Source of the DNA: an uncultured virus (IMG/VR IMGVR_UViG_3300009419_000009) | Lineage: Duplodnaviria > Heunggongvirae > Uroviricota > Caudoviricetes | Strand: one strand, 5' to 3' | IMG/VR virus record: IMGVR_UViG_3300009419_000009 | Coordinates: 1 to 64,000 of that record | Length of the DNA stretch: 64,000 nucleotides | Part shown: piece by piece, positions 9,425 through 21,763 of the stretch | Numbering within the stretch: position 1 is the stretch's first letter | How the letters are laid out: each line of letters starts with the position of its first letter | Notes under the pieces: model-generated | Databases searched by the model: none | Seen by the model: the letters and a program-made list of their open reading frames with translations, nothing else | Told to the model about the DNA's origin: nothing | Position numbers and translations under genes: made by a program

Positions 9425-9425
9425 A

Positions 9426-11699: not shown

Positions 11700-12048
11700 C
11701 GAGTCTTTCAAAAAATTCAATGCGTGGCACATGTTCTTCACCAATGATTGGCCGACCACGATAGTCGCTGCCTTTGACCATGATGTCTGGCTCGCTTGTT
11801 TGGATCAGGTGTTCTAGTTCTTGATCTGTGTCAAAAGTACAAACCTTGTCCACGTACCTTAGAGCTTGCAACATTAGCCTGCGTTCATCTTGATTGAAGA
11901 ACGGACGGCCTGTGCCTTTTAGCTGTCGTACACGACGATCTGTATCTATAGCAACTGTTACCCTGCCAAGACTAGCCGCATACTGCAACAGCATCACATG
12001 CCCCGGATGCAGGATATCAAACGTACCATTGACGAACACTTTAATCAT
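11653..12048 (-). CDS. Cytidylyltransferase-family nucleotidyltransferase (HldE domain II-like)
   Basis: GTFDILHPGH, KG..RP, VKGSDY, YSST motifs; start trimmed to MIKVFVNG because the longer ORF overlaps tRNAs. Confidence 0.88.
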   Translation of the reverse strand: MIKVFVNGTFDILHPGHVMLLQYAASLGRVTVAIDTDRRVRQLKGTGRPFFNQDERRLMLQALRYVDKVCTFDTDQELEHLIQTSEPDIMVKGSDYRGRPIIGEEHVPRIEFFERLDEYSSTKAIQHIVTR

Positions 12049-12054
12049 TGTTAC

Positions 12055-12083
12055 ATTATATATTGTTGCACAAGCTTCGTCAA
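12055..12083 (-). promoter_or_regulatory. Sigma70-type promoter, probably leaderless
   Basis: TTGACG-17-TATAAT, ATG follows after 6 nt. Confidence 0.75.
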
Positions 12084-12091
12084 TAGATATT

Positions 12092-12165
12092 TGGTGCTCA
12101 AGTACAGAATCGAACTGTCGATTGCTCCTTACCATGGAGCCGTTATGCCACTTAACTACAAGAGC
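12092..12165 (-). tRNA. tRNA-Thr(GGU)
   Basis: GCTCC-ATGGTAA-GGAGC, T-loop, CCA. Confidence 0.92.
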
Positions 12166-12166
12166 G

Positions 12167-12243
12167 TGGTACCCCTCCCCCGACTCGAACGGGGAACACA
12201 CTCCTTTTGAGAGAGCCGCGTCTACCAATTGCGCCAGAGGGGT
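12167..12243 (-). tRNA. tRNA-Leu(CAA), short variable loop
   Basis: Loop CTCAAAA, 77 nt, CCA. Confidence 0.85.
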
Positions 12244-12249
12244 ATTGAG

Positions 12250-12325
12250 TGGTGGAAGTGGTGAGACTCGAACTCACGATAAACACCGTATGAAGGTGGC
12301 GCATTAGCCACTATGCTACACTTCC
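12250..12325 (-). tRNA. tRNA-Met(CAU) (elongator; Ile2 not excluded)
   Basis: CACC-TTCATAC-GGTG, CCA. Confidence 0.85.
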
Positions 12326-12330
12326 TGAAA

Positions 12331-12407
12331 TGGCGACCCCGAAAGGATTTGAACCTCTGACATTTGGTTTTGGAGACCAACGTTCTGCCGGACTGAACTA
12401 CGGAGCC
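12331..12407 (-). tRNA. tRNA-Trp(CCA)
   Basis: TTGGT-CTCCAAA-ACCAA, CCA. Confidence 0.95.
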
Positions 12408-12412
12408 ATGTA

Positions 12413-12490
12413 TGGAGCAACGGGTGAGATTTGAACTCACGGTTTTCGGGATTTGCAATCCCGTGCATTGGGCCGCTCTGCCACCGTTGC
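12413..12490 (-). tRNA. tRNA-Cys(GCA)
   Basis: CGGGA-TTGCAAA-TCCCG, U73, CCA. Confidence 0.95.
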
Positions 12491-12494
12491 ATAT

Positions 12495-12568
12495 TGGTTG
12501 CGGGCCCAGGATTTGAACCTGGGATGCTCCTGGCTTATGAGACCGGAGTGGTGGCCGCCCTGCCCGCG
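12495..12568 (-). tRNA. Initiator-like tRNA-Met(CAU) with aberrant D-arm
   Basis: CGCGGGC/GCCCGCA acceptor with C1xA72, loop CTCATAA, canonical T-arm, CCA. Confidence 0.75.
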
Positions 12569-12575
12569 ATAATCT

Positions 12576-12667
12576 TGGCGGAAACGGAGAGATTCGAACT
12601 CTCGGTGCCAATTACTTGACACGACAGGTTAGCAACCTGCTGCCTTAGACCACTCGGCCACGTTTCC
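12576..12667 (-). tRNA. tRNA-Ser(GCU)
   Basis: CAGG-TTGCTAA-CCTG, long variable arm, CCA. Confidence 0.95.
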
Positions 12668-12677
12668 AGTTGTTTGT

Positions 12678-12706
12678 ATTATATAGTGATAGCACATTGC
12701 TGTCAA
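12678..12706 (-). promoter_or_regulatory. Consensus sigma70 promoter internal to tRNA array
   Basis: Perfect TTGACA-17-TATAAT 10 nt upstream of tRNA-Ser(GCU). Confidence 0.88.
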
Positions 12707-12715
12707 TGTTTATTT

Positions 12716-12791
12716 TGGTAGTTCCTAGCGGGCTTGAACCACTGACCTTTACGATGTCAACGTAACGCTCTACCAACTGAGCTAAGGAACT
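12716..12791 (-). tRNA. tRNA-Val(GAC)
   Basis: TTACG-TTGACAT-CGTAA, CCA. Confidence 0.95.
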
Positions 12792-12793
12792 GT

Positions 12794-12868
12794 TGGTACC
12801 GCTAGGAGGAATCGAACCTCCGTCTTAACCTTAGGAGTGTTTTGTTCTATCCACTGAACTATAGCGGT
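12794..12868 (-). tRNA. tRNA-Arg(CCU), weak anticodon stem
   Basis: Loop CTCCTAA, only 3 WC pairs in anticodon stem; good acceptor, D and T arms, CCA. Confidence 0.8.
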
Positions 12869-13074
12869 TTGTTTAGTTTTTTGATATGCTCAATGTGGCG
12901 TTTGAATTCGCGCACATAGTAAGGATCTTTTTCCAGCATCTTGGCTAGATATCCTGCTAGAAAACCTGCATGATACAGCCTGTGCATTCTTTCGTTGCCC
13001 TTGTATTCCACAGGACACACTGACTCTACACTTTGTTGTATAAACTTAACATAGTCTTCGTGTGAGTAGTCCAT
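12859..13074 (-). CDS. Hypothetical 71-aa protein
   Basis: ORF filling a gap between tRNAs; TAAATA 5 nt before ATG; stop lies inside tRNA-Arg(CCU). Confidence 0.65.
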   Translation of the reverse strand: MDYSHEDYVKFIQQSVESVCPVEYKGNERMHRLYHAGFLAGYLAKMLEKDPYYVREFKRHIEHIKKLNKPL

Positions 13075-13085
13075 ACAAATATTTA

Positions 13086-13161
13086 TGGAGCCCCCTGAGG
13101 GATTCGAACCCCCGACTAACTGGTTCGAAGCCAGCTACTCTGTCCACTGAGTTAAAGGGGC
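13086..13161 (-). tRNA. tRNA-Arg(UCG)
   Basis: CTGG-CTTCGAA-CCAG, CCA. Confidence 0.93.
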
Positions 13162-13167
13162 AATGTG

Positions 13168-13243
13168 TGGTGCCAAGGACTGGACTCGAACCAGTAACAC
13201 ACGGATTTTCAATCTGCTGCTCTACCATTGGAGCTACCGAGGC
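13168..13243 (-). tRNA. tRNA-Phe(GAA)
   Basis: Loop TTGAAAA, CCA. Confidence 0.92.
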
Positions 13244-13248
13244 ATGTT

Positions 13249-13323
13249 TGGGGAGAAGTACGGGAATCGAACCCGTGATAGCGGAATCACAACCCGCGGT
13301 TTTGCCACTAAACTAACGACTCC
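13249..13323 (-). tRNA. tRNA-His(GUG)
   Basis: Loop TTGTGAT, G-1:C73, CCA. Confidence 0.92.
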
Positions 13324-13329
13324 ATTGAT

Positions 13330-13403
13330 TGGCACGGGAACTAGGGATCGAACCTAGGACGACAGAGTCAAAGTCTGTTGTGTTACCTCTACACCATTCC
13401 CGA
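13330..13403 (-). tRNA. tRNA-Gln(UUG)
   Basis: ACAGA-CTTTGAC-TCTGT, CCA. Confidence 0.93.
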
Positions 13404-13410
13404 ACAAAAC

Positions 13411-13487
13411 TGGCGCGACCAGCAGGATTCGAACCTACCACCCCAACGTTCGTAGCGTTGTACTCTATCCAAATGAGCTATGGTCGC
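13411..13487 (-). tRNA. tRNA-Arg(ACG)
   Basis: CAACG-CTACGAA-CGTTG, CCA. Confidence 0.95.
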
Positions 13488-13590
13488 ATAATTAGTGCTA
13501 GATTGTTTACTGCACAACCTAGCAAAGCAGGGGTCTGTAGACTGCATACAACTTGTCTCATTGTACTCCGTATGCAAGGGAGAGATTGAA

Positions 13591-13808
13591 TTTGAGAGCC
13601 TACGCCGCGTTTATCGTAGATTTATTCAGGACTTACCGGCCGCCTAGCCTGACCTCGCTCGCGATGGATATCACTTGGGCGCCTGTCCAGTTAGCAACCA
13701 ATCTGCACCGCTCTTCCGAGCAGCCGGGAGTTGAACCCGTCCCCTTTTACTATTTTGGTAGTTCGAACTTACCTAGATAGCGTGACTGCGCTTGCTGACA
13801 CTCTCAAA
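13591..13808 (-). ncRNA. Putative structured ncRNA (~220 nt), family unknown
   Basis: Closed by TTTGAGAG/CTCTCAAA stem; internal T-arm-like CGGG-TTCAACT-CCCG; GC-rich; no convincing ORF. Confidence 0.6.
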
Positions 13809-13811
13809 ACT

Positions 13812-13888
13812 TGGTCGGAGTACAAGGATTCGAACCTTGGACCCCCTGGTCCCAAACCAGGTGCGCTACCAGACTGCGCCACACTCCG
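13812..13888 (-). tRNA. tRNA-Pro(UGG)
   Basis: CCTGG-TTTGGGA-CCAGG, CCA. Confidence 0.95.
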
Positions 13889-13895
13889 AAATTGA

Positions 13896-13969
13896 TGGTG
13901 CCCCGTGACAGAATCGAACTGCCAACTACTGATTACAAAACAGTTGTTATACCACTTAACTAACAGGGC
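13896..13969 (-). tRNA. tRNA-Thr(UGU)
   Basis: Loop TTTGTAA, CCA. Confidence 0.92.
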
Positions 13970-13976
13970 TTGAAAC

Positions 13977-14050
13977 TGGAGCGGGGTAGGAGAATCGAAC
14001 TCCTCGCTTTAGCTTGGAAGGCTAAGGTATTACCACTATACGAACCCCGC
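13977..14050 (-). tRNA. tRNA-Gly(UCC)
   Basis: TTAGC-CTTCCAA-GCTAA, CCA. Confidence 0.95.
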
Positions 14051-14059
14051 AATAAAATC

Positions 14060-14134
14060 TGGTGCATCGTGAGAGGGTCGAACTCCCGACATTCGCCGTG
14101 TAAAGGCGCTACTCTACCACTGAGTTAACGATGC
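14060..14134 (-). tRNA. tRNA-Val(UAC)
   Basis: CGCC-TTTACAC-GGCG, CCA. Confidence 0.95.
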
Positions 14135-14139
14135 AATGT

Positions 14140-14214
14140 TGGTGGAGGATAGCGGGGTCGAACCGCTGACTGAAGCTTGCAAAGCTACTGTGTTCCCAAC
14201 TATACCAATCCCCC
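14140..14214 (-). tRNA. tRNA-Ala(UGC)
   Basis: Loop TTTGCAA, G3:U70, CCA. Confidence 0.92.
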
Positions 14215-14221
14215 ATAACAC

Positions 14222-14297
14222 TGGCTCCACAGGGTGGGCTCGAACCACCGACCAAATGATTAACAGTCATCTACTCTACCAACTGAGCTACTGCGGA
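14222..14297 (-). tRNA. tRNA-Asn(GUU)
   Basis: ATGA-CTGTTAA-TCAT, CCA. Confidence 0.95.
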
Positions 14298-14305
14298 ATA
14301 AAATC

Positions 14306-14381
14306 TGGAGCGGGCGAAGAGGTTCGAACTCTCGACATTTACCTTGGCAAGGTAATGCTCTACCAACTGAGCTACGCCCGC
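14306..14381 (-). tRNA. tRNA-Gly(GCC)
   Basis: TTACC-TTGCCAA-GGTAA, CCA. Confidence 0.95.
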
Positions 14382-14392
14382 ATGTGTTTTAC

Positions 14393-14614
14393 TTATTTGT
14401 CGCGAACTTTCTTCAAATATTCGCGACCTACTTTACCTTGTTCAATTTCTTCAAGCACTTGAATAATAGGACCATTTGTTGATACAACTTTTGATCTATG
14501 TCCAGCTTTGATTTCTCTTAGTCTAGCTGATGCAATCAACACTAGGTCAAATTGATTACCTATCATTTGTGCTGCCTCTTGTGATGTTCTACCAGTGATG
14601 TATTCGTCGGACAT
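14393..14614 (-). CDS. rpoZ: RNA polymerase omega subunit-like protein
   Basis: IGNQFDLVLIASAR.REI..GH and LEEIEQGKVG.EYLKKV match the recalled omega pattern NRF.LVL.A..RAR.L / ALREI..G.(I/V). Confidence 0.8.
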   Translation of the reverse strand: MSDEYITGRTSQEAAQMIGNQFDLVLIASARLREIKAGHRSKVVSTNGPIIQVLEEIEQGKVGREYLKKVRDK

Positions 14615-14667
14615 TAAGTTCCTTTGTTTTATTTACTTAGTATAACACACGATCATGCTAATTGCAA

Positions 14668-14742
14668 TGGTTGCCTATCTTGGGAACGATCCAAGGACCC
14701 CCGCCTTATCAAGACGGTGCTCTACCACTGAGCTAATAGGCA
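14668..14742 (-). tRNA. tRNA-Ile(GAU)
   Basis: Loop TTGATAA, T-loop variant ATCGTTC, CCA. Confidence 0.92.
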
Positions 14743-14747
14743 ATAAT

Positions 14748-14909
14748 ACCATATGGAAACACACTAGTGAGCCAGTCTAACGCAGCCATCGCAACTTTGC
14801 AAGTCGTTTCCAACTTGTGTATCGTCTTTCTGGGCGAGCTGTATGTGTAGAGCTCCGCAAGTTCTCAATGCAATCGCTTGCAAGGACAACTAGTATGTTT
14901 TCATATGGT
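14748..14909 (-). ncRNA. Conserved-stalk hairpin RNA, copy 4
   Basis: ACCATATGAAAACATACTAGT...ACTAGTGTGTTTCCATATGGT terminal stem; begins in the ACCA of tRNA-Lys(UUU). Confidence 0.6.
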
Positions 14910-14981
14910 AGAAGCAGTGGGACTCGAACCCACAACTATCCGGTTAAAAGCCGGGTACTCTAGCCATTGAGTTATGCTTCC
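14906..14981 (-). tRNA. tRNA-Lys(UUU)
   Basis: CCGG-CTTTTAA-CCGG, CCA. Confidence 0.95.
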
Positions 14982-14984
14982 ATA

Positions 14985-15060
14985 TGGTCCCTGCGGTCAG
15001 GCTCGAACTGACGACCAGCGGATTAAGAGTCCGTTGCGCTACCAACTGCGCCACACAGGG
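14985..15060 (-). tRNA. tRNA-Lys(CUU)
   Basis: CGGA-CTCTTAA-TCCG, CCA. Confidence 0.95.
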
Positions 15061-15120
15061 TTGTACGTATTGTTTGATTTTACGTGCCAACCCTAGACCA
15101 TACGGATGCCTAGAGCGACA

Positions 15121-15141
15121 CTAGAGTTTACCTCGTTTCAT
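15121..15141 (-). CDS. Minigene/leader peptide MKRGKL
   Basis: AAGGAG SD (15148-15153) 6 nt before ATG AAA CGA GGT AAA CTC TAG. Confidence 0.6.
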   Translation of the reverse strand: MKRGKL

Positions 15142-15164
15142 GTCAATCTCCTTGATTAAATAAA

Positions 15165-15357
15165 ATGCTCTGCGAACCCCGGTGGTAATTATACCGTATC
15201 AGACCTTTGGAGTCATCACGCACGGCCTCCACCCACTTCCCGACGGGTTCCGTTGTCGCATTGCCAGCGGCCTTTCGGTAGGAAGACTACCACCCTTGGC
15301 TATCACACCACTTCTCATCGTGCGGGTCACACTATCTGCTGATTAGGCAGAACGTTC
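15165..15357 (-). ncRNA. Putative structured ncRNA (~190 nt), family unknown
   Basis: GC-rich non-coding block; long-range CGCACG/CGTGCG and GGTGGTAGT/ATTACCACC complementarity. Confidence 0.55.
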
Positions 15358-15417
15358 TAGCTACAGGACACTTGTGTTGTTTAAGCCTGAGCACGGATGC
15401 AAGGCTCCTCTAAAAAT

Positions 15418-15492
15418 TGGCGGTGCCAAGGGGTAACGATCCCCTTCTTCGAGCGTGACAGGCTCGTGTGCGTCCATGAACACTTTGGCACC
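15418..15492 (-). tRNA. tRNA-Asp(GUC)
   Basis: CGAGC-CTGTCAC-GCTCG, T-loop variant ATCGTTA, CCA. Confidence 0.92.
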
Positions 15493-15498
15493 TAAAAA

Positions 15499-15574
15499 TG
15501 GTACACGGTACGGGAATCGAACCCGTCTTACTAACGTGAAAGGCTAGTGTCCTAAACCGATAGACGAACCGTGC
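15499..15574 (-). tRNA. tRNA-Glu(UUC)
   Basis: CTAGC-CTTTCAC-GTTAG, CCA. Confidence 0.93.
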
Positions 15575-15579
15575 ATAAA

Positions 15580-15664
15580 TGGTGGAGGTGGCTGGACTTG
15601 AACCAACAATGCACAAGGGCGGCGGATTTACAGTCCACTGGGGATACCATTTTCCTACACCTCC
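15580..15664 (-). tRNA. tRNA-Tyr(GUA)
   Basis: GTGGA-CTGTAAA-TCCGC, long variable arm, CCA. Confidence 0.93.
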
Positions 15665-15672
15665 AAATTTTT

Positions 15673-15803
15673 ACCATATAGAAACACACTCGGCTCCCCT
15701 TACAACCTTGTTCCTGTCAATTCAGGATGCACCTGGAATGAACCCAGCGGATCTCCTTGGTTGTTTGTATCTGTCAATTCAGATTGAAAATGTGTTCTTA
15801 TAT
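15673..15803 (-). ncRNA. Conserved-stalk hairpin RNA, copy 3
   Basis: ATATAAGAACACATT...AGTGTGTTTCTATAT; two internal CTG-AATTGA-CAG hairpins. Confidence 0.6.
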
Positions 15804-15806
15804 AAT

Positions 15807-15890
15807 ACCATATAGAAACACACTGGCTGTTGCTTGTCATTGTCTTTAACTACCTCTCGGTGGCGGTAGACCAGTGTGTTTTTATATGGT
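15807..15890 (-). ncRNA. Conserved-stalk hairpin RNA, copy 2
   Basis: ACCATATAAAAACACACTGG...CCAGTGTGTTTCTATATGGT. Confidence 0.6.
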
Positions 15891-16773
15891 GGAGGACTGA
15901 GAATACATCTCTCCCATAAGCACCTCAAGCATTATTGTACACCTTGCGAGCGTACTTTCTCTTGACTTCCACTCGGGTCCTTGCGGATCTCCTAGTCTGC
16001 TTACAGTATCGCCGTTTTTAACGTCAAGCAGTAGACGTGTCATCATATGCTATTCTGCGGATTCCATTCCGTTAGCCTTGCGAGCTATTCAGGTGCGCTA
16101 ACACCTTACGAACCCCCCTCCACAAACTAATGTCACCTTGCGAGCTTCATTAGACTTGATTCACTTGCGTGTCAAGTATTAGATACTTTTCACATATGAC
16201 CGAGGCAGTCTTTGCGTTTTTGTAATGATAGTTGGGATTTGAACCCGACTGCATCCAGCTTAAAAGGCTAGCGTTCAACCATTGAACTTTATCAACCTAC
16301 CGTGATGAGCTACCTCTGTTGCTATATAATCTTTTGGACTACATAATACAACTCACCACATACCTTTCCTCTTGCGGAGTAATCAGTGATGTTTCACGAC
16401 CAGTGTCCTGCTTCAAAACAGTCCACCACCCATTAACATTGCACACGAGCCCTTGGGTGCAACCCCTCGAACCAATATACTACCCTTTCTCATACCTGTT
16501 GACAAGTTGGTTTTGTATGGAAGTCAGCACCACCTGTTACTTTTCATGCACCCTGGTTCCCTTACGGGCCAGTCGATACACATTCTTCCCCATACACTTG
16601 CTTCACAGTTACAACCACCGGTCTTATCAGTGATCGCTACCTTGCGATAGTGAGCAGGCTTGTTTACATGAACCATCTCTGGCGCAGGAGTGTAGGACTC
16701 ATCTGCTTTGGGTAGGTCACCCTACTTATTCTTCGTAGACGGCAAGCCGCCTACAGGACAATAAACTGCCCCG
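15887..16773 (-). ncRNA. GOLLD-like giant structured RNA (~890 nt)
   Basis: No credible ORF; at least 7 CGCAAG tetraloop-type motifs; long-range helices 16763-16773/16201-16211 and GTGGAGG(~16116-16122)/CCTCCAC(3' end); size and phage tRNA-cluster context fit GOLLD; not confirmed by CM search. Confidence 0.7.
16225..16296 (-). other. tRNA-Lys(UUU)-like element embedded in GOLLD-like RNA
   Basis: D-arm GTTC/GAAC, CTAGC-CTTTTAA-GCTGG, T-loop TTCAAAT, short TGATA/TATCA acceptor, no CCA. Confidence 0.7.
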
Positions 16774-16776
16774 AAA

Positions 16777-16903
16777 CTTTATTTGTTCTGCCATCTGCAC
16801 TATATGCCTCGCTCAACAGCTTTACTCGAGTTTACTGTTTATTGCTTTGGTTACATAACGCTTGATCTTGCCTCTGTGCTTACAGAAGGCAGAACAAATA
16901 AAG
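16777..16903 (-). ncRNA. Putative 127-nt RNA closed by a perfect 16-bp stem
   Basis: CTTTATTTGTTCTGCC...GGCAGAACAAATAAAG. Confidence 0.55.
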
Positions 16904-16904
16904 C

Positions 16905-17116
16905 CCATATCAAAACATACTACAGGAACTCCACTTACCTCACAGGACCGTCTCCTGCTACTTCCGTTTCGTCATTACAGTCTAACATACTCCACCGTGT
17001 CATACTTGGGTTTCCCCTCAACTTTCATGTGACTTGCACAGAGCCAGTCCGTCAACTGGTTATCCTCAGTGCAAGCACCTAGTGGTGTTAGCAACCTCTA
17101 ATACATTTAGATATGG
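16905..17116 (-). ncRNA. Conserved-stalk hairpin RNA, copy 1 (divergent)
   Basis: CCATATCTAAATGTATTA...TAGTATGTTTTGATATGG; begins in the CCA of tRNA-Leu(UAG). Confidence 0.5.
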
Positions 17117-17190
17117 TGCCCAAGGAGAGACTCGAACTCTCAAAATTTGGCTTCTAAGACCAACACGTATACCAATTCCGTCACCTGGGC
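17114..17190 (-). tRNA. tRNA-Leu(UAG), short variable loop
   Basis: TTGGT-CTTAGAA-GCCAA, 77 nt, CCA. Confidence 0.88.
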
Positions 17191-17251
17191 ATTGCTTTTT
17201 AACGATGTTAAAGAACATTTGTTCGTCTGCAAACGATGTTGCAGTTGGGTT

Positions 17252-17280
17252 AGTGTAACTGCAATTTGCATTGCTGTCAA
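17252..17280 (-). promoter_or_regulatory. Sigma70-type promoter (tandem, proximal)
   Basis: TTGACA-17-TACACT. Confidence 0.75.
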
Positions 17281-17353
17281 CTAATTTTTCTACTGTGTTG
17301 CAAAACAACAACAGCACCCTTGTTAGCAACACGATGTTTGCTACAGTTTCACA

Positions 17354-17382
17354 AGTATATGTGATCCTGGCATTGCTGTCAA
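17354..17382 (-). promoter_or_regulatory. Sigma70-type promoter (tandem, distal)
   Basis: TTGACA-17-TATACT. Confidence 0.8.
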
Positions 17383-17477
17383 CTGCTTTTTTAACATGTT
17401 GCAAAAATACTACACTGGTTGTTGACTTTGCAACACTTACAGATTCACAGTCGGTAAGTCATGTTCGTCCAATGTAG

Positions 17478-17541
17478 GTATCAAAGCACTCTTCATGGAT
17501 GAACCCACTTGTCCCCTCGCGGGTAGAGAATGCTTTGATAC
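17478..17541 (-). ncRNA. Small conserved-stalk-like hairpin, copy 0
   Basis: GTATCAAAGCATTCT...AGAGTGCTTTGATAC. Confidence 0.45.
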
Positions 17542-17663
17542 GTTACCATTTTACCATCTGCGTTTCCACCACAGACTTCTCATCCGGTAAGCCGCCCACA
17601 TTAATAGCCGATGTTTTGAGTGCCAGCAGGGTCGCGTTCCCTATACACACTTTTCATGATCCT

Positions 17664-17698
17664 AAAAACAAAAAACCCCAGGGTTTTAAGCCTAGGGT
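17664..17698 (-). terminator. Intrinsic terminator of the putative attenuator
   Basis: ACCCTAGG-loop-CCTGGGGT followed by TTTTTGTTTTT. Confidence 0.85.
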
Positions 17699-17754
17699 CC
17701 TTGGAGTTTGCTGAGTTAATTTGTGTTAACTGTGCGAGTCTCCTGGACCCTTGG
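17691..17754 (-). promoter_or_regulatory. Antiterminator hairpin overlapping the terminator 5' arm
   Basis: AGGGTCC/GGACCCT, GGAG/CTCC and AGTTAA/TTAACT pairings; mutually exclusive with the terminator. Confidence 0.75.
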
Positions 17755-17866
17755 TGCCTGGTAGTGTGCGATCATTACTAATCTCAGTCGCAGACCACAA
17801 GGCCACTGGCATAAATGAATATGCTTGGCTATGCTGTTTGCAGTTGAGAACGAATGTCGGTTTCAT
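17726..17866 (-). CDS. 46-aa leader peptide containing all 20 amino acids
   Basis: MKPTFVLNCKQHSQAYSFMPVALWSATEISNDRTLPGTKGPGDSHS; A-rich leader with AAGGA; promoter upstream. Confidence 0.72.
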   Translation of the reverse strand: MKPTFVLNCKQHSQAYSFMPVALWSATEISNDRTLPGTKGPGDSHS

Positions 17867-17920
17867 TTTGTTTCTTTTTCCTTTGATACTCAGTACATTA
17901 TTGCACTGTGTAAGTCTTGT

Positions 17921-17949
17921 ATTGTAGAGATATTTAGCAATGCTGTCAA
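17921..17949 (-). promoter_or_regulatory. Sigma70-type promoter with TAAATA late motif in spacer
   Basis: TTGACA-gcattgcTAAATAtctc-TACAAT. Confidence 0.82.
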
Positions 17950-17995
17950 CCTCTTATGGTTTATTTAGTCTTTTGTTGTTTTTTCACAATGTATC

Positions 17996-18085
17996 TGGTC
18001 CCCCGTTGCAGAATCGAACTGCATCCTGGACCTTATCTAGATTAATCGTGTATAAAACGACCTGCTCTCCATGAGCTAACGGGGG
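17996..18085 (-). tRNA. tRNA-Ile(UAU) with long extra region
   Basis: GTCGT-TTTATAC-ACGAT, ~21-nt variable region, CCCCCGT/ACGGGGG acceptor, CCA. Confidence 0.78.
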
Positions 18086-18095
18086 ATTAAAAACT

Positions 18096-18180
18096 TGGTA
18101 CCCCCGACCGGACTCGAACCGGTACGCCTCAACGGCGGCAGATTTTAAGTCTGCTATGTCTACCATTCCATCACAGGGGC
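18096..18180 (-). tRNA. tRNA-Leu(UAA)
   Basis: GCAGA-CTTAAAA-TCTGC, long variable arm, CCA. Confidence 0.95.
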
Positions 18181-18187
18181 ACGATCA

Positions 18188-18235
18188 TCATAAAGATGAT
18201 ATTCGTAATCGGCCTATGTAGAATGGAGTGTTCAT
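18188..18235 (-). CDS. Leaderless minigene MNTPFYIGRLRISSL
   Basis: ATG 6 nt after the -10 box; ATA x2, TTA x2, CGA x2; tandem TGA TGA stop. Confidence 0.55.
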   Translation of the reverse strand: MNTPFYIGRLRISSL

Positions 18236-18241
18236 GTGTGT

Positions 18242-18270
18242 ACTATAACTTGAATATTTATTTATGTCAA
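18242..18270 (-). promoter_or_regulatory. Sigma70-type promoter with TAAATA in spacer
   Basis: TTGACA-17-TATAGT. Confidence 0.75.
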
Positions 18271-18744
18271 CCGCGATTCTTCAATTTCTAACCAGGTGTG
18301 GTCACCCATGTATTTCACTTGCGTTTGGTATTCGTAGTCTTCGGGTGCAGAGCTTGACCAATCGTTAGGCCCATGGTGTGTCAGTAGAACATGTTGTTTG
18401 CGCTTGTCCCAGACCAACCAGTAAGTCTGGCCCATCACAGGACTGAACTGATATACAGCGGCATGCACTGCATCTGTGACATCTAGTCGTCGTTTGATTG
18501 ACTGTGCTTGTTTTTCCAGTACTGAGACCAGTTCCATGATCCTGTCGTACTCTTGCTGGGCATACATCCTAGCATGGTTGATCATGAGATCTTTTTGCTG
18601 TGTAACGGGCACAAGATCAAACTTGGGTCCACCTGCTTCAGTTGGGTAAGGTGTTACATTACGATTAAAAAACGGAATAATCCCGCCTGTGGTGGTAGAG
18701 TCATAACTGTCTCTGCCCTTGGCTAGGTTTGATTTTTTTTCCAT
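18262..18744 (-). CDS. DUF2452-like protein
   Basis: Coiled coil followed by VH.A.YQF.P..GQTYWL and GP.DW, recalled as DUF2452-like. Confidence 0.55.
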   Translation of the reverse strand: MEKKSNLAKGRDSYDSTTTGGIIPFFNRNVTPYPTEAGGPKFDLVPVTQQKDLMINHARMYAQQEYDRIMELVSVLEKQAQSIKRRLDVTDAVHAAVYQFSPVMGQTYWLVWDKRKQHVLLTHHGPNDWSSSAPEDYEYQTQVKYMGDHTWLEIEESRLT

Positions 18745-18760
18745 GTAATTACTTATGTCT

Positions 18761-18835
18761 TGGTCCGGCGTGAAGGAATCGAACCCTCATTCTGGGAGTA
18801 GAAATCCCATGCATTATCCATTATACTAACGCCAG
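18761..18835 (-). tRNA. tRNA-Arg(UCU)
   Basis: TGGGA-TTTCTAC-TCCCA, CCA. Confidence 0.92.
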
Positions 18836-18840
18836 ATGTT

Positions 18841-18915
18841 TGGTGGGCTCACTGTGAATTGAACACAGACTCAATCGATTATGAGTCGACTGCTTTACCA
18901 TTAAGCTATGAGCCC
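18841..18915 (-). tRNA. tRNA(CAU), probably Ile2 (lysidine type)
   Basis: TCGA-CTCATAA-TCGA; GGGCTC acceptor resembles Ile2; CCA. Confidence 0.8.
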
Positions 18916-18923
18916 AAATTGCT

Positions 18924-18952
18924 ATTGTATGATTTATTTAGATTGCTGTCAA
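18924..18952 (-). promoter_or_regulatory. Sigma70-type promoter with TAAATA in spacer
   Basis: TTGACA-17-TACAAT just upstream of the first tRNA. Confidence 0.82.
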
Positions 18953-18955
18953 CCG

Positions 18956-20290
18956 TCATCTAGCACGTGGAAACACGGGTCTCTGTGCAGATGGTGCTGG
19001 TGTTGCCGCTGTTTGCGCTGATGGCGCCATGGTTCGTGCTGGTATTGCAACCGGAGCTGGTGCTGTTGCATCAGGTTCTGATTTTTTGGTTTTAGGAAAC
19101 ATTTTGTAAACCATTTTACCAATTTTGGCTGGATCGGTCCCTTTGGTGTATTCTTGTGCAATCATATTAGTTATGTTGGCAATAGATTGCGGATCCGACA
19201 CACCTCGCTCATAGGCCATTTCTTTGGCTGCTGCCTGAGCAATGGTCATAATTTTTTGTTTAGATAACTTTTGCCCAGTTTGTGGCAAAGATTTGGCCAC
19301 GTCAAAACGTCCAGCACGTATAGACGCACCCGGTGCTAGTTCCACTTGCGGCATCATTTCTGCTTCTGGTGCCAGAATGTAAGCAGTTTTCACGCTGATC
19401 TGGCCTTCCATGTCGTCAAAGTCTTTGAAGTATTGTACTTGTTCTGTGGGCAGGTCCATGATCAACATGCCTTCAAATTGACTGTACTTTTTGTAGTTAT
19501 TATAACCAACCCTGGCAATGGCACGTAGGATGGAGTTTTCATCACCGTCCATGAGTGCTTTTTGATATTCACCATTGGGCACATGATTGAATGTGCCGTC
19601 TGCAATGGCTTTACAAACTGTTTTTAAGTTCTTGGGATTGATTCTTGGACGAATAGTGTTTACCCAGTTGTCCAAACCCACACGATCACCAATTTTTACA
19701 AGGCGGCCTGCTGAGTTTGCAATAGCACTACGAATACCTGTTAGATCTAAGTTGGCTTTGCGGGCATTGATCCAGCGGCCACCTTTGGCTGCACGTGCTT
19801 TGACTTCAACTGGCATCTTGTTAACGATAATATCGCCGCCGCCTTTGATACGGCCACTCCAGGCAATGTTGGGATGTAGTACTGCCAGTGCCACCTCGCA
19901 CGGACCCACACCTTGCGCAGTTAATTCTGTTGATAAATCTTTGAATAACTCTTTACCAAATCCTGTGCCAATTACGTCGTCAAATGAATGCAACGATCCG
20001 TCTAACAGTTTACCTACATCGATTCCGTTGCCGTTTTTTACAAGCTCTAGGAAAGCATCTTTTTCTTCAATTGGAGCATCAATGTCAATGATTGAACGTG
20101 CGATCTTTGATAGAAACACACTGGCGTCAGCATCTTTGCCCAGCACTGATTTGATGCGTTCTTCAATGTTTCCTGCTTTGAGCGTTCGCAAGACTTTTTG
20201 CAGAACAGATGGATCATCGGTGGATTTTACCACTGCGATAATCTCTTTCTTAAGTGCAGGATCTTCTAGTACCAGGTCTGTATAGCGCAT
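18956..20290 (-). CDS. Hypothetical protein with PD-(D/E)XK-like motif
   Basis: 444 aa; E...GGDIIV...VEVKA; Pro/Ala-rich tail; TAAATA at 20311. Confidence 0.5.
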   Translation of the reverse strand: MRYTDLVLEDPALKKEIIAVVKSTDDPSVLQKVLRTLKAGNIEERIKSVLGKDADASVFLSKIARSIIDIDAPIEEKDAFLELVKNGNGIDVGKLLDGSLHSFDDVIGTGFGKELFKDLSTELTAQGVGPCEVALAVLHPNIAWSGRIKGGGDIIVNKMPVEVKARAAKGGRWINARKANLDLTGIRSAIANSAGRLVKIGDRVGLDNWVNTIRPRINPKNLKTVCKAIADGTFNHVPNGEYQKALMDGDENSILRAIARVGYNNYKKYSQFEGMLIMDLPTEQVQYFKDFDDMEGQISVKTAYILAPEAEMMPQVELAPGASIRAGRFDVAKSLPQTGQKLSKQKIMTIAQAAAKEMAYERGVSDPQSIANITNMIAQEYTKGTDPAKIGKMVYKMFPKTKKSEPDATAPAPVAIPARTMAPSAQTAATPAPSAQRPVFPRAR

Positions 20291-20320
20291 TGTTTAACTC
20301 GTAATAAGAGTATTTATGCG

Positions 20321-21070
20321 CTAGTGATCAATACGGTAAAGAGCTTTGTCCAGCCACGGAAACAGCGCATCCTGCTGGCGCACATGCCCGTAAGTGCGAA
20401 CACTGTTGGCAATGCTGTCGTTTACCAAGCCTTTTTCTATTAGCTCAAACCATGTGGTTTTTGCCGGATCCATAGGAGCAACATCTGATTTGAACACAGC
20501 CACATGCAACCAAGGATCATCTATGGCCTTGCGAAAATACGCATCTTTACAATCAAATCCATTCACAGCCAGCATGTACAGCATGGTCACAAATGTATGA
20601 TTAAAAAACTGAAAATTTTCGCCACGACTTTGCCAGCGTCCGTATTCATGATAGGTCAGCATGGGCATGCCCAGATACAGCATGCCGTTTACATTCATTT
20701 GTTCGCTGAACAGTCGCATGGTTTTTATTGGATTCACTGCATACTGAAATGCATCGTGACACCAGATTACATCAACAGTCTGTGGTAAACATGCTGTTTC
20801 AAAATCTTTTTGGATGTACAACATGTTGGTTGGTTGCTCAAAGTCAATCAACTTTGGCCTGCGATCCACTGCATAGCATTGCAGATTCAACGGATCTCGT
20901 ACATCATCTCTGGTGGATGCTTGTGCCCACCAAAGTGTATCCAGACATGCACCAGCACCCATGTCTGCTACGCTACTGATACTTTCCATGAACGTATCAT
21001 GTTCTCGTAAGAGATTCAACACCATTTGACTATGGTTGTGACTTTGTATTGCATTATCAAACTGAGCCAT
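20321..21070 (-). CDS. Class I SAM-dependent methyltransferase
   Basis: VADMGAG motif I; VDVIWCHDAFQY; M...GMLYL. Confidence 0.8.
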   Translation of the reverse strand: MAQFDNAIQSHNHSQMVLNLLREHDTFMESISSVADMGAGACLDTLWWAQASTRDDVRDPLNLQCYAVDRRPKLIDFEQPTNMLYIQKDFETACLPQTVDVIWCHDAFQYAVNPIKTMRLFSEQMNVNGMLYLGMPMLTYHEYGRWQSRGENFQFFNHTFVTMLYMLAVNGFDCKDAYFRKAIDDPWLHVAVFKSDVAPMDPAKTTWFELIEKGLVNDSIANSVRTYGHVRQQDALFPWLDKALYRIDH

Positions 21071-21314
21071 GTGTCAATATCTCAACTATTATTTTTTCTC
21101 TGTAGCTTTTTAATCTTGACTCAAATTGGTAGATAGACTCTGCGGTGTCCGTGTGCGTTGGATTCCATGAAAGATTCCTGGACATATAATTTGCCCAGTG
21201 TTCAAGTGCATCTCTTTCAATTTGCAAATTGATAGCATCGCTTTTGGGCTTGGCATTTTTGCACAAGGTCCATTCTTCCAACAGTTGTTCGCCACGTTGC
21301 TGTATGGTCATCAA
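21057..21314 (-). CDS. Hypothetical protein
   Basis: 85 aa, overlaps both neighbours in an operon. Confidence 0.6.
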   Translation of the reverse strand: MMTIQQRGEQLLEEWTLCKNAKPKSDAINLQIERDALEHWANYMSRNLSWNPTHTDTAESIYQFESRLKSYREKIIVEILTHGSV

Positions 21315-21763
21315 ACACTCACGTCTTCCATGCCAGCTGTGCGTAATCTAACAATGTGCCCAAGCATGAAGTTTTTACTTTCAATGCCTTTCATGATACC
21401 CAACCAACGGTTACGCAACAAAGCCACTTCATTGATGATTGTTTCAAAATCAATCACTTCGTCTTCACCATCCACATACTTTTCAGCATCACGTGATGTA
21501 AGTGCTCGATTGTAAGATTCAAGATACTTCTGAAAGTGTTTTCTACGTATTTTCCGCAATTGAATATTCAGGTGTTCAAGCACCGCTTCAATCTCTTGTA
21601 GCTGATTAAATCGATGCTCGGTCAGCCCTGGCAAATCGCTTATGCGTTGTTCAACACGGCCAGCAATGGCCACGTCTCGCTTGGCAGCAATCATTTCTGC
21701 TTCATAGAAAGCAATGAAGTCAGGAATATTACCAAGGTCCTGAACTACCTTGTTATACCACAT
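21311..21763 (-). CDS. uvsY: UvsY-like recombination mediator
   Basis: Helical 150 aa, Y..AL...DAEKYVDGEDEV; downstream of uvsX. Confidence 0.75.
   Translation of the reverse strand: MWYNKVVQDLGNIPDFIAFYEAEMIAAKRDVAIAGRVEQRISDLPGLTEHRFNQLQEIEAVLEHLNIQLRKIRRKHFQKYLESYNRALTSRDAEKYVDGEDEVIDFETIINEVALLRNRWLGIMKGIESKNFMLGHIVRLRTAGMEDVSV

What the first reader, a model, noticed from the sequence alone, without database searches (positions are those of the whole stretch)
14906..18270. Candidate system: ribosome-based tRNA-shortage sensors gating a phage tRNA array
Seen: three unannotated mini-ORFs (17726-17866, 15121-15141, 18188-18235). In each, the codon content matches the tRNAs downstream (all 20 aa before the all-20-aa block; Lys AAA before both tRNA-Lys; TTA/ATA before tRNA-Leu(UAA)/Ile(UAU)), and each is coupled to alternative RNA pairings. 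Established: leader-peptide attenuation (trp, his operons) reads charged-tRNA levels; anticodon nucleases such as PrrC destroy tRNA as anti-phage defence; phage tRNAs can compensate. Inference: the phage monitors translation and releases replacement tRNAs on demand, through transcription attenuation globally and tRNA folding/processing locally. I do not know of a description of this for phage tRNA arrays, but could not search the literature.
Basis: partly seen in the sequence, partly recalled or inferred. Interest (0 to 1): 0.92.

Follow-up and report, generated by a model that had tools for sequence, protein, structure and literature searches.

The report
Ribosome-read leader switches before phage tRNAs
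Three tiny genes inside an uncultured lake phage's tRNA cluster are kept in many related phages. Each ends inside an RNA fold, so a passing ribosome probably decides whether a nearby tRNA or regulatory RNA gets made.

Summary
All three mini-ORFs are real and lie on the minus strand.

- **#2 (MKRGKL):** the same module occurs in 42 distinct versions. It has a Shine-Dalgarno site, M-K-[R/H]-…-K-x-UAG, a helix starting at the stop codon, and a tRNA-Lys called downstream in 38 of the 42.
- **#3:** it starts at the predicted transcription start, so it would be leaderless. It keeps AUA CGA UUA CGA AUA. Its 5' part is complementary to the nascent tRNA-Leu(UAA).
- **#1 (46 aa, all 20 amino acids):** this is a leader-peptide attenuator. 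In 8 of 8 types folded, including unrelated sequences, its last codons pair with the terminator's 5' arm.

- ORF1's terminator gates a new structured RNA ("X"), not the whole array. Strong promoters follow it.

Translation and tRNA sensing are inferred, not shown. This scan noted look-alike cassettes before on other genomes. My literature searches found no published account.

The parts
18242..18270 (-). Sigma-70-type promoter (TTGACA, 17 nt, TATAGT). Six bases separate the -10 box from the ATG of mini-ORF #3.
   Evidence: 11 of 12 matches. The same promoter and the same 6-nt spacing to ATG are seen in all 9 relatives' sequences.
18188..18235 (-). Mini-ORF #3, predicted leaderless: MNTPFYIGRLRISSL*, with core ATA..CGA TTA CGA ATA.
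   Evidence: Relatives read MNYK[AG][FLH]HSIRLRIR*, with the stop at the same codon as TAA, TAG or TGA.
18213..18228 (-). Leader segment complementary to nt 3-21 of tRNA-Leu(UAA), a candidate 'anti-tRNA' strand.
   Evidence: 16 bp, duplex -19.6 kcal/mol, reached by 0 of 100 shuffles.
18180..18207 (-). Hairpin overlapping the end of mini-ORF #3 and abutting the tRNA's 5' end.
   Evidence: Relatives have hairpins of at least four different sequences at the same place.
17996..18180 (-). tRNA-Leu(UAA) at 18096-18180 and tRNA-Ile(UAU) at 17996-18085.
   Evidence: The Ile(UAU) gene is 90 nt and was not matched by Rfam's tRNA model.
17921..17949 (-). Promoter of the ORF1 unit (TTGACA, 17 nt, TACAAT).
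   Evidence: It is conserved in relatives. RNA contigs of two studies end at 17906.
17726..17866 (-). ORF1: a 46-codon leader ORF holding all 20 amino acids, with a purine-rich Shine-Dalgarno-like stretch upstream.
   Evidence: The frame is open in 9 of 9 homologous sequences, and their ORF lengths (45, 46, 48 and 50-60 codons) differ by whole codons.
17740..17754 (-). Antiterminator 5' strand (ORF1 codons 38-43). It pairs with 17691-17706, which is the terminator's 5' arm.
   Evidence: The equivalent pairing is present in 8 of 8 types, with different sequences in L315 and L291.
17671..17702 (-). Intrinsic terminator (12-pair stem followed by a U run).
   Evidence: It is conserved. One RNA contig ends inside it and another bridges it.
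17390..17650 (-). Structured RNA 'X' directly after the terminator. It has no promoter of its own in the consensus scan.
   Evidence: 57 pairs, 29 with compensatory changes. No Rfam match. No promoter between 17670 and 17383.
17252..17382 (-). Two promoters (17382->17354 and 17280->17252) ahead of tRNA-Leu(UAG).
   Evidence: 11 and 10 of 12 matches.
17114..17190 (-). tRNA-Leu(UAG).
15894..17095 (-). GOLLD RNA, about 1.2 kb. The conserved 3' domain is 15894-16359. A tRNA-like insert lies at 16223-16296.
   Evidence: RF02032, 198.2 bits (gathering score 150), E = 4e-55, with a tRNA match of 44.4 bits. RNA contigs span 15897-17095 at depths 484, 158, 44 and 24.
15418..15664 (-). tRNA-Tyr, tRNA-Glu and tRNA-Asp.
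15170..15360 (-). Structured RNA 'Y'. The promoter of mini-ORF #2 lies in its 3' end.
   Evidence: 55 pairs, 11 compensatory, from 5 sequences. No Rfam match.
15188..15216 (-). Promoter-like site (ATGACT, 17 nt, TATAAT) ahead of mini-ORF #2.
   Evidence: 10 of 12. Relatives carry stronger promoters at the same place.
15121..15153 (-). Shine-Dalgarno AAGGAG (15148-15153) plus mini-ORF #2, MKRGKL* (15121-15141).
   Evidence: 42 distinct modules elsewhere.
15084..15121 (-). Bipartite helix that starts at the G of the UAG stop: GUGUCR pairs with UUGGCAC and encloses a covarying hairpin.
   Evidence: 6 outer pairs paired in 39-40 of 40 sequences; the inner stem has compensatory changes.
14906..15083 (-). 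Conserved single-stranded spacer with an invariant AAA, then tRNA-Lys(CUU) at 14985-15060 and tRNA-Lys(UUU) at 14906-14981.

Best explanation
The interval is the middle of the 33-tRNA array of an uncultured myovirus-type phage (121 kb). It is cut into many host-type promoter units. It also holds a GOLLD RNA and two unnamed structured RNAs, X and Y.

The three mini-ORFs are conserved, promoter-proximal leader ORFs. The 3' end of each overlaps a conserved RNA helix. Where a ribosome sits on the ORF would therefore choose between two RNA folds.

(1) ORF1 is a leader-peptide transcription attenuator.
- Its codons 38-43 pair with the 5' arm of the terminator, forming an antiterminator.
- A ribosome that reaches the end of the ORF in time prevents that pairing, and transcription stops.
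- A ribosome delayed anywhere in the roughly 36 upstream codons lets transcription run on into RNA X.
- Those upstream codons carry all 20 amino acids in 6 of 9 types.

(2) The Lys leader reads SD-MK[R/H]..Kx-UAG.

(3) The leaderless Leu/Ile leader carries AUA CGA UUA CGA AUA.

Leaders (2) and (3) have no terminator. Instead, a leader strand can pair with the 5' acceptor/D region of the nascent tRNA. A ribosome held on the cognate codons keeps that strand unavailable: covered by the ribosome in #3, or locked in its hairpin in #2. The tRNA can then fold. A ribosome that runs through, or is absent in #3, lets the leader trap the tRNA precursor.

Shown: sequence, conservation, the codon-degeneracy pattern, covariation, and presence in RNA libraries.
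Inferred: translation, stalling, the direction of the effect, and any link to tRNA-cleaving defences.
For: ORF1
- Promoter, ORF and terminator are conserved in 9 of 9 homologous sequences; the frame stays open in all and ORF lengths differ by whole codons.
- Distant carriers of RNA X keep the layout promoter + 36-56-codon ORF + terminator. This holds for L291 and L315 although their peptides are unrelated; L300 and L349 keep an ORF1-like peptide.
- In 8 of 8 types folded, RNA folded up to the terminator loop pairs the terminator's 5' arm with the last codons of the ORF. The sequences differ: GGGUCC/GGACCC, GGCUUCCUU/AAGGAAGCC, CCGGGGUUCU/AGAACCCCGG.
- X is a real structured RNA (29 of 57 pairs compensatory). 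It has no promoter of its own in the scan.
- One RNA contig ends in the terminator and another bridges it.
- All 20 amino acids are present in 6 of 9 types, against 0.6-2.3% expected. Cys sits in four different places.

Mini-ORF #2
- 42 distinct modules were found with patterns that name only the TAG stop (or nothing) of the ORF. A tRNA-Lys was called downstream in 38 of them. The other 4 are two cut at a contig end upstream of the tRNA... in fact L202 and L235 are cut on the ORF side, and L167 and L221 have no tRNA call.
- 0 of 80 chance hits to the same patterns have a tRNA-Lys or this ORF.
- In 40 full modules, codon 2 and codon -2 are always Lys (AAA or AAG, never AAY). Codon 3 is CGA 18, CGT 18, CGC 1, CAT 2, CAC 1. 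ORF lengths are 6, 7 or 8 codons.
- This pattern of variation follows the genetic code.
- The helix begins at the stop codon.
- The predicted acceptor-stem probability is 0.94 for the tRNA alone. It is 0.83 with a ribosome at Lys2, 0.47 at Lys(-2) and 0.01 at the stop (31 of 37 below 0.5). With a shuffled arm at the stop it is 0.36.

Mini-ORF #3
- The -10 box, 6 nt, then ATG are kept in 10 of 10 sequences.
- Stop codons TAA, TAG and TGA all occur at one position.
- The window's version differs by an in-frame 3-nt length change.
- The leader with the ORF occurs in 13 of 13 loci that have the Leu(UAA)-Ile(UAU) pair. It occurs in 0 of 8 where tRNA-Leu(UAA) has no adjacent Ile(UAU).
- Acceptor-stem probability is 0.00-0.15 with a free leader in 7 of 9 types. 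It is 0.89-1.00 with the ribosome A site on AUA or UUA.
- The window's divergent leader matches its own divergent tRNA: -19.6 against -9.6 to -12.7 kcal/mol.

Precedents for uORF sensors of amino acid or tRNA supply (abstracts read): whiB7, bmrB, mycobacterial leaderless Cys ORFs.
Against: - There is no direct evidence of translation. The RNA contigs cannot show starts, strand or level.
- #2 and #3 have no terminator. Their effect on tRNA rests on thermodynamic folds that ignore kinetics, RNase P and tRNA tertiary structure.
- #2: arm-to-tRNA complementarity beats shuffles (at most 10 of 200) in only 8 of 37 modules. The cognate mean is -10.9 and the non-cognate mean is -9.3 kcal/mol. Shuffled arms also lower the acceptor probability in 22 of 37.
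- #2: Arg or His at codon 3, and often Arg last, are conserved too. A pure Lys sensor does not explain that.
- #2: AAA precedes tRNA-Lys(CUU), which cannot read AAA.
- #3: no excess pairing in 2 of 8 types (24 and 29 of 100 shuffles reach it). It is marginal in 3. The L098/L102 type folds as a tRNA even with a free leader.
- #3: the core is invariant at nucleotide level, so codon and RNA constraints cannot be separated.
- #3: 8 of 21 relatives have tRNA-Leu(UAA) with no leader at all, so the leader is dispensable.
- ORF1: all 20 amino acids are missing in 3 of 9 types. A conserved peptide core (MPVALWSAT.ISNDRT) could mean a functional small protein.
- Of 87 distinct tRNA leaders examined, only the Lys and Leu(UAA) ones carry such ORFs. 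This is not a general rule of the array.
Confidence: 0.5

Rival explanations
1. The mini-ORFs are not translated. The conserved sequences are promoter-proximal and pre-tRNA leader signals, such as hairpins and single-stranded tracts for RNase P, RNase E or RNase III, or protein-binding repeats like (WUACGA)x3. The ORFs are by-products.
For: - The core of #3 (CACAGCAUACGAUUACGAAUACG) is invariant even at wobble positions in 9 of 9 non-window sequences.
- TAGTGTC and TTGGCACGT in #2 are invariant.
- Conserved hairpins sit next to the tRNA 5' ends.
- No ribosome data exist.
Against: - #2 varies exactly as the genetic code predicts: AAR never AAY in 80 of 80 Lys codons, and CGA/CGT/CGC or CAT/CAC at codon 3.
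- #2 lengths are 6-8 codons, always in frame.
- A purine-rich Shine-Dalgarno-like stretch sits 6-8 nt upstream, clear in most modules, despite different flanking sequence.
- #3 keeps a stop as TAA, TAG or TGA at one position, and an in-frame length change.
- The ORF1 frame is open in 9 of 9 sequences and their lengths differ by whole codons.
Confidence: 0.15
2. The ORFs are translated, but for a generic reason. Ribosome loading might shield the 5' end of long untranslated transcripts from Rho or RNases, or the peptides themselves might act. There would be no sensing of particular tRNAs.
For: - The peptides are partly conserved beyond the 'sensor' codons. #2 keeps M-K-R..K-R. ORF1 keeps the core MPVALWSAT.ISNDRT.
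- AAA as second codon is common in bacterial genes (recalled).
- The Lys codon type does not track the anticodon downstream.
Against: - The module is bound to tRNA-Lys: a tRNA-Lys was called after 38 of 42 modules and after 0 of 80 chance hits.
- The #3 leader goes with the Leu(UAA)-Ile(UAU) pair.
- It uses three of the phage's rarest codons: ATA 1.16%, TTA 0.77%, CGA 0.41%.
- Distant carriers of X keep the ORF-antiterminator-terminator layout without peptide similarity.
- Only 2 kinds of the 87 tRNA leaders have such ORFs, which argues against a generic need.
Confidence: 0.2
3. ORF1 is an ordinary small phage protein gene with its own promoter and terminator. X is a separate RNA gene that happens to lie next to it. 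The 'all 20 amino acids' property is chance.
For: - There is a conserved peptide core.
- Three protein clusters were called by gene finders.
- 5 of 221 random small ORFs in this genome also hold all 20 amino acids.
- 3 of 9 types lack the property.
Against: - The antiterminator strand lies inside the last codons in 8 of 8 types, with unrelated sequences in L315 and L291.
- X never appears without the ORF and terminator upstream in the 13 distinct sequences seen.
- X has no promoter of its own in the scan.
- One RNA contig bridges the terminator.
Confidence: 0.15

Closest known systems
whiB7/wblC uORF transcription attenuator of mycobacteria (PMC10274678, abstract read)
   Same: A uORF in a 5' leader, where stalled translation gives antitermination. 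It responds to loss of many amino acids, tRNAs and synthetases. The uORF sequence varies while its composition matters.
   Different: ORF1 here sits in a phage. It controls a structured non-coding RNA (X) next to tRNA genes, not a transcription factor. It is diverse (all 20 amino acids in 6 of 9 types) rather than Ala-rich.
Leader-peptide attenuators of amino-acid operons (trpL, hisL, ilv leaders; textbook knowledge, recalled)
   Same: A short ORF, with an antiterminator strand near the ORF's end and an intrinsic terminator. Regulatory codons are cognate to the product (the Lys and Ile/Leu leaders here).
   Different: ORF1 has no predicted 1:2 'anti-antiterminator', so naked RNA favours read-through. 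Leaders #2 and #3 have no terminator. The helix competed for is the tRNA's own acceptor/D region. The products are tRNAs or an RNA, not biosynthetic enzymes.
bmrB-bmrCD ribosome-mediated attenuation in Bacillus subtilis (PMC4191407, abstract and section titles read)
   Same: A small ORF containing alternative stem-loops and an intrinsic terminator. Its translation is required for control. Rare codons affect the decision (section title).
   Different: That is a cellular drug-efflux operon induced by ribosome-targeting antibiotics. Here it is a phage non-coding target.
Leaderless polycysteine short ORFs of mycobacteria (bioRxiv 10.1101/834739, abstract read), and VapC4 tRNA-Cys cleavage read by Cys small ORFs (title seen in the reference list of PMC10264068)
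   Same: A leaderless short ORF at the transcript's 5' end, with runs of one kind of codon. A stalled ribosome reshapes a downstream RNA duplex. tRNA cleavage acts as the input.
   Different: Those control translation of downstream protein genes. Here the downstream gene is the tRNA that reads the codons.
GOLLD RNA, Rfam RF02032 (bioRxiv 10.1101/2024.12.08.627333, passages read)
   Same: A full-length match to the conserved 3' domain. It lies in a phage, next to tRNAs, with a tRNA-like insert, and is abundant in RNA libraries.
   Different: None that was tested. It is a member of the family. Its length of about 1.2 kb is at the long end.
T-box riboswitches (recalled)
   Same: A leader RNA that reads a tRNA and contains a codon-like triplet. 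An invariant AAA lies in the Lys leader.
   Different: No Rfam T-box match at E up to 10. There is no Stem I or T-box sequence. The leaders are far shorter and carry ORFs.

Membership tests
Leader-peptide transcription attenuator (ORF1) | A short ORF with start signals in the 5' leader, close to a promoter. | tested here: met
   Promoter 17949->17921. ATG preceded by a purine-rich stretch. The ORF is conserved in 9 of 9 sequences.
Leader-peptide transcription attenuator (ORF1) | An intrinsic terminator between the ORF and the regulated gene. | tested here: met
   Terminator 17702->17671. It is conserved.
Leader-peptide transcription attenuator (ORF1) | An antiterminator mutually exclusive with the terminator, with one strand placed where a ribosome on the ORF covers it. 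| tested here: met
   Window 17754-17740 pairs with 17706-17691. Present in 8 of 8 types with differing sequences.
Leader-peptide transcription attenuator (ORF1) | Translation of the ORF changes termination. | not testable with these tools
   There are only RNA contigs. One ends in the terminator and one bridges it.
Leader-peptide transcription attenuator (mini-ORFs #2 and #3) | An intrinsic terminator downstream of the ORF. | tested here: not met
   The hairpins are followed by UUGGCACGU (#2) or 3-9 mixed bases (#3), with no U run. They may work like attenuators but are not members of that family.
Leader-peptide transcription attenuator (mini-ORFs #2 and #3) | Regulatory codons cognate to the regulated product. 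| tested here: met
   Lys codons in 80 of 80 positions before tRNA-Lys. AUA and UUA before tRNA-Ile(UAU) and tRNA-Leu(UAA) in 10 of 10 sequences.
GOLLD RNA (RF02032) | A covariance-model score above Rfam's gathering score over the whole model. | tested here: met
   198.2 bits against 150, model positions 1-416 of 416.
GOLLD RNA (RF02032) | Phage or prophage context near tRNAs, and expressed as a long RNA. | tested here: met
   It lies inside the array. RNA contigs span 15897-17095 in 4 of 4 runs, while the neighbouring coding stretch 18250-18675 has depth 0.
T-box riboswitch | A match to the T-box model (Stem I, specifier, T-box sequence). | tested here: not met
   No match at E up to 1 over 8000-22000, nor at E up to 10 on the two sub-regions.
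Leaderless mRNA (mini-ORF #3) | The transcript starts at the A of the AUG. | tested here: inconclusive
   The -10 box, 6 nt, then ATG occur in 10 of 10 sequences, so +1 is predicted at the A. No 5'-end data were available.

The most novel reading that the evidence does not exclude
Phages run a tRNA homeostat in which the tRNA's own acceptor/D region takes the place of the terminator in an attenuator. A mini-ORF spelled in the codons of the downstream tRNA (Lys, or Ile/Leu) sits in the pre-tRNA leader. A ribosome waiting for that tRNA keeps a leader strand from trapping the nascent tRNA. Mature tRNA is then made when it is scarce, for example after host nucleases cleave tRNA-Lys. Output is throttled when the tRNA is plentiful. 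Beside this, a 20-amino-acid leader ORF acts as a general translation gauge that releases a new structured RNA (X).
Probability: 0.3. Interest if true: 0.9.

Novelty: new variant of a known kind. Interest (0 to 1): 0.8.

Why it matters
Why phages carry tRNAs, and how they time and dose them, is an old question. Recent work shows that host defences cleave tRNA-Lys and that a phage tRNA-Lys variant rescues infection (PARIS, PMC11464382, abstract read).

A ribosome-read switch in front of phage tRNA-Lys, and another before tRNA-Leu(UAA)/Ile(UAU), would be the first case of tRNA genes regulated by the codons they decode. It would extend attenuation logic from terminators to tRNA folding.

The ORF1-terminator-X cassette gives a testable handle on a new structured RNA that sits next to GOLLD, whose function is still unknown. 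The Lys module, with 42 natural variants, is small enough (about 125 nt) to test directly in reporters.

Tried and rejected
- **GenBank phages.** No relative by megablast, blastn or tblastn beyond tRNA-level hits. No cultured system was found.
- **The search for related loci with the 46-aa ORF1.** The query was too short. I used DNA motifs and a protein search instead. The protein search gave only 3 clusters.
- **Motif scan for X.** It was too loose: 120 loci, of which 6 passed my filter.
- **Core scan for #3.** It returned the same 13 loci.
- **Genome scan for #2.** 1 true module among 9 hits, in a MAG contig. I draw no host from it.
- **A general rule of a 'cognate-codon uORF before every tRNA block'.** Rejected. 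Of 87 distinct leaders, only Lys and Leu(UAA) have one.
- **Sigma-54 promoter reading of TTGGCACG.** Rejected. There is no TTGC at the -12 spacing (read).
- **T-box, tmRNA or RNase P readings of X and Y.** No support.
- **X and Y as related RNAs.** They share only a 10-nt identity.
- **RNA depth.** Parts of the interval without RNA cover are not taken as silent.
- **Literature searches**. None returned a paper describing leader ORFs controlling tRNA genes. Old T5 tRNA-region papers that I recall mentioning small ORFs were not in the library and were not seen.
- **Supplementary files.** None were opened.

Full report
**Context.** The window is the first 64 kb of a single 121,177-bp contig with 44% G+C. 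It encodes a T4-type large terminase, a tail sheath, a gp15-like protein and a RecA/UvsX-like protein. It is therefore a tailed phage of the myovirus type. Runs that hold it are labelled lake, freshwater or subsurface metagenomes. All 33 tRNA genes lie on the minus strand between 9335 and 18915. No close relative is in the GenBank phage collection.

- Rfam finds a full-length GOLLD RNA at 15894-16359 (198 bits, gathering score 150, E = 4e-55). A tRNA-like insert lies at 16223-16296.
- In four metatranscriptome runs from four studies, contigs at depths 484, 158, 44 and 24 span 15897 to about 17095. The neighbouring protein-coding stretch 18250-18675 has depth 0 in all four.
- The signal is therefore RNA, and the GOLLD transcript is about 1.2 kb. 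It begins just after tRNA-Leu(UAG).
- GOLLD near phage tRNA islands, sometimes carrying tRNAs, is already described (passages read).
- The consensus scan finds 21 promoter-like sites against 11.2 ± 3.3 in shuffles. They include near-perfect minus-strand promoters at 18952, 18270, 17949, 17382, 17280 and 12706. The array is many transcription units, not one operon.

**Mini-ORF #2 (15141->15121, MKRGKL*).**
- A scan of viral contigs used only a motif downstream of the ORF. It gave 12 true loci and 1 chance hit.
- A metagenome scan named only the TAG stop and the downstream motif. It gave 120 loci.
- Together these are 42 distinct true modules and 80 chance rows.
- A tRNA-Lys (CUU or UUU) was called 14-28 nt downstream in 38 of the 42. 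L202 and L235 are cut at the contig end on the ORF side but do have the tRNA-Lys. L167 and L221 have no tRNA call.
- All 40 modules whose ORF side is complete have an in-frame M-K-[R/H]-(0-3 residues)-K-x-UAG ORF. A purine-rich Shine-Dalgarno-like stretch lies upstream; it is weak in a few (for example L129, L155, L192).
- No chance row has a tRNA-Lys or such an ORF.
- In the 40 full modules, codon 2 is AAA 31 / AAG 9 and codon -2 is AAA 32 / AAG 8. Codon 3 is CGA 18, CGT 18, CGC 1, CAT 2, CAC 1. ORF lengths are 6, 7 or 8 codons (the 41st regex match, L146, is a false hit).
- Third positions therefore vary as the genetic code allows. This is the best available sign that the frame is read.
- The G of UAG starts an invariant 6-pair helix (GUGUCR with UUGGCAC) around a covarying hairpin.
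- Each relative has a promoter just upstream. The window has a weaker one at 15216->15188.

**Mini-ORF #3 (18235->18188).**
- The promoter 18270->18242 leaves exactly 6 nt between the -10 box and the ATG. The predicted start is the A of AUG, so the mRNA would be leaderless.
- Thirteen related loci (9 distinct sequences) keep the promoter, the spacing and a 14-codon ORF, MNYK[AG][FLH]HSIRLRIR.
- The stop is TAA, TAG or TGA at the same codon. The window's version differs by an in-frame 3-nt length change.
- The core is AUA CGA UUA CGA AUA CGN. These are three of the phage's rarest codons (ATA 1.16%, TTA 0.77%, CGA 0.41%).
- The leader is present in 13 of 13 loci with the adjacent Leu(UAA)-Ile(UAU) pair. 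It is absent in 8 of 8 where tRNA-Leu(UAA) has no adjacent Ile(UAU).
- The hairpin at the ORF's end has at least four different sequences.

**ORF1 (17866->17726).**
- It has its own promoter (17949->17921) and an intrinsic terminator (17702->17671).
- Nine homologous sequences, in five types, keep an open frame; their ORF lengths (45, 46, 48 and 50-60 codons) differ by whole codons.
- Right after the terminator lies RNA X (17650-17390). 29 of its 57 predicted pairs show compensatory changes. It has no Rfam match and no promoter of its own in the scan.
- A loose scan for X found four more carriers. L291 and L315 have ORFs of unrelated sequence (36 and 56 codons). They still have a promoter, an ORF and a terminator directly before X.
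- In 8 of 8 types folded, RNA folded up to the terminator loop pairs the terminator's 5' arm with the last codons of the ORF. In the window this is 17754-17740 with 17706-17691.
- The sequences are unrelated across types, which amounts to covariation. This is the architecture of a leader-peptide attenuator.
- Naked RNA favours the antiterminator. Only a ribosome arriving at the ORF's end in time should give termination. A delay at any upstream codon would then cause read-through.
- That makes a codon-diverse ORF sensible. All 20 amino acids occur in 6 of 9 types, against 0.6% expected, or 2.3% for random small ORFs. Cys sits in four different places.
- The types share ancestry, so I give no formal p-value.
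- RNA contigs of two studies end at 17906, near the predicted start. One ends inside the terminator and one bridges it. This is a weak hint of partial termination.

**How #2 and #3 might act.** These points rest on fold predictions (inference).
- #3, free leader: nt 8-23 (18228-18213) pair with tRNA-Leu nt 3-21. Acceptor-stem probability is 0.00 in the window, and 0.00-0.15 in 7 of 9 types. The other two, L098 and L102, give 0.96.
- #3, ribosome footprint with its A site on AUA or UUA: the probability is 0.89-1.00 in all types.
- #3, leader-tRNA duplex against 100 shuffles: WIN 0, L090 1, L092 1, L101 7, L100 8, L087 10, L097 24, L098 29 shuffles reach the observed energy.
- #3: the window's leader prefers its own tRNA (-19.6 against -9.6 to -12.7 kcal/mol).
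- #2, 37 modules with a full tRNA: the tRNA alone gives a median of 0.94. A ribosome at Lys2 gives 0.83, at Lys(-2) 0.47, and at the stop 0.01 (31 of 37 below 0.5).
- #2, shuffled 3' arm with a ribosome at the stop: 0.36 (22 of 37 below 0.5). The natural arm is at or below all but one of 20 shuffles in 18 of 37 modules.
- #2, direct arm-tRNA complementarity beats shuffles in only 8 of 37 modules.
- The signal is real but uneven.

**Limits.**
- Nothing shows translation.
- Only these two leader kinds, among 87 examined, carry such ORFs.
- The AAA codon precedes tRNA-Lys(CUU), which cannot read it.
- Arg or His is conserved beside Lys. Both leaders share 'cognate codon + CGN' units: Lys-Arg twice, and Ile-Arg, Leu-Arg, Ile-Arg. 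I cannot explain this.

**Comparison and novelty.**
- ORF1 works like the whiB7 uORF attenuator (abstract), bmrB (abstract) and the trp/his leaders (recalled). It meets the tested structural criteria for that family.
- #2 and #3 fail the terminator criterion. They resemble leaderless Cys-codon ORFs that reshape downstream RNA (abstract).
- Five literature searches found no account of leader ORFs controlling tRNA genes.
- Earlier notes of this scan describe the same #3 leader (e1-5874610). They also describe similar ORF-terminator cassettes on other genomes. I reached the same readings from my own calls.

**Verdict.** This is a new variant of a known kind. Interest 0.8.

Noticed in passing
window 17390-17650 (-): RNA 'X' is about 260 nt. 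29 of 57 predicted pairs have compensatory changes in 10 sequences. It has no Rfam match. It always lies after the ORF1-type leader and terminator.
   Followed up: partly
window 15170-15360 (-): RNA 'Y' lies between tRNA-Asp and the Lys leader. It has 55 predicted pairs, 11 compensatory, in 5 sequences, and no Rfam match. It shares a 10-nt string (GATGAGAAGT) with X.
   Followed up: partly
window 15894-17095 (-): The GOLLD RNA is about 1.2 kb and is by far the deepest RNA contig. It has a tRNA-like insert at 16223-16296 (Rfam 44 bits, missed by ARAGORN). By my own reading, its anticodon loop reads UUU (Lys).
   Followed up: partly
window 16772-16904: RNA contigs of two runs join 16771 to 16905, with 10 other letters in place of 133 nt. 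This is a natural variant of the GOLLD 5' region lacking this insert. The motif CCATATCAAAACATAC sits at the joint (16905-16920).
   Followed up: no
window 14749-16920: The motif CCATATGRAAACAYAC has 7 hits against 0.38 expected. It occurs in inverted pairs that bracket inter-tRNA spacers. One copy lies right after an RNA's 3' CCA and the other just before the next tRNA's 5' end. These may be processing stems or module borders.
   Followed up: partly
window 17996-18085 (-): tRNA-Ile(UAU) is 90 nt with a long extra arm. ARAGORN calls it, but Rfam's tRNA model does not at E up to 1. Relatives also have a long-armed Ile(UAU).
   Followed up: no
window 14393-14614 (-): A 73-aa ORF inside the array matches the RNA polymerase Rpb6/omega family (Pfam, E = 3.6e-9).
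   Followed up: no
window 18262-18744 (-): A DUF2452 gene is embedded in the array. It is very conserved (80-94% identity), with 537 relatives in viral contigs up to 353 kb long. Its stop codon lies inside the -35 box of the #3 promoter.
   Followed up: partly
window 15121-15141 and 18188-18235: Both tRNA leaders are built of 'cognate codon + Arg CGN' units: Lys-Arg twice, and Ile-Arg, Leu-Arg, Ile-Arg. This is unexplained.
   Followed up: no
window 8700-9257 (-): A 185-aa ORF matches the C-terminal domain of malonyl-CoA decarboxylase (Pfam, E = 2e-20). This is unusual for a phage.
   Followed up: no
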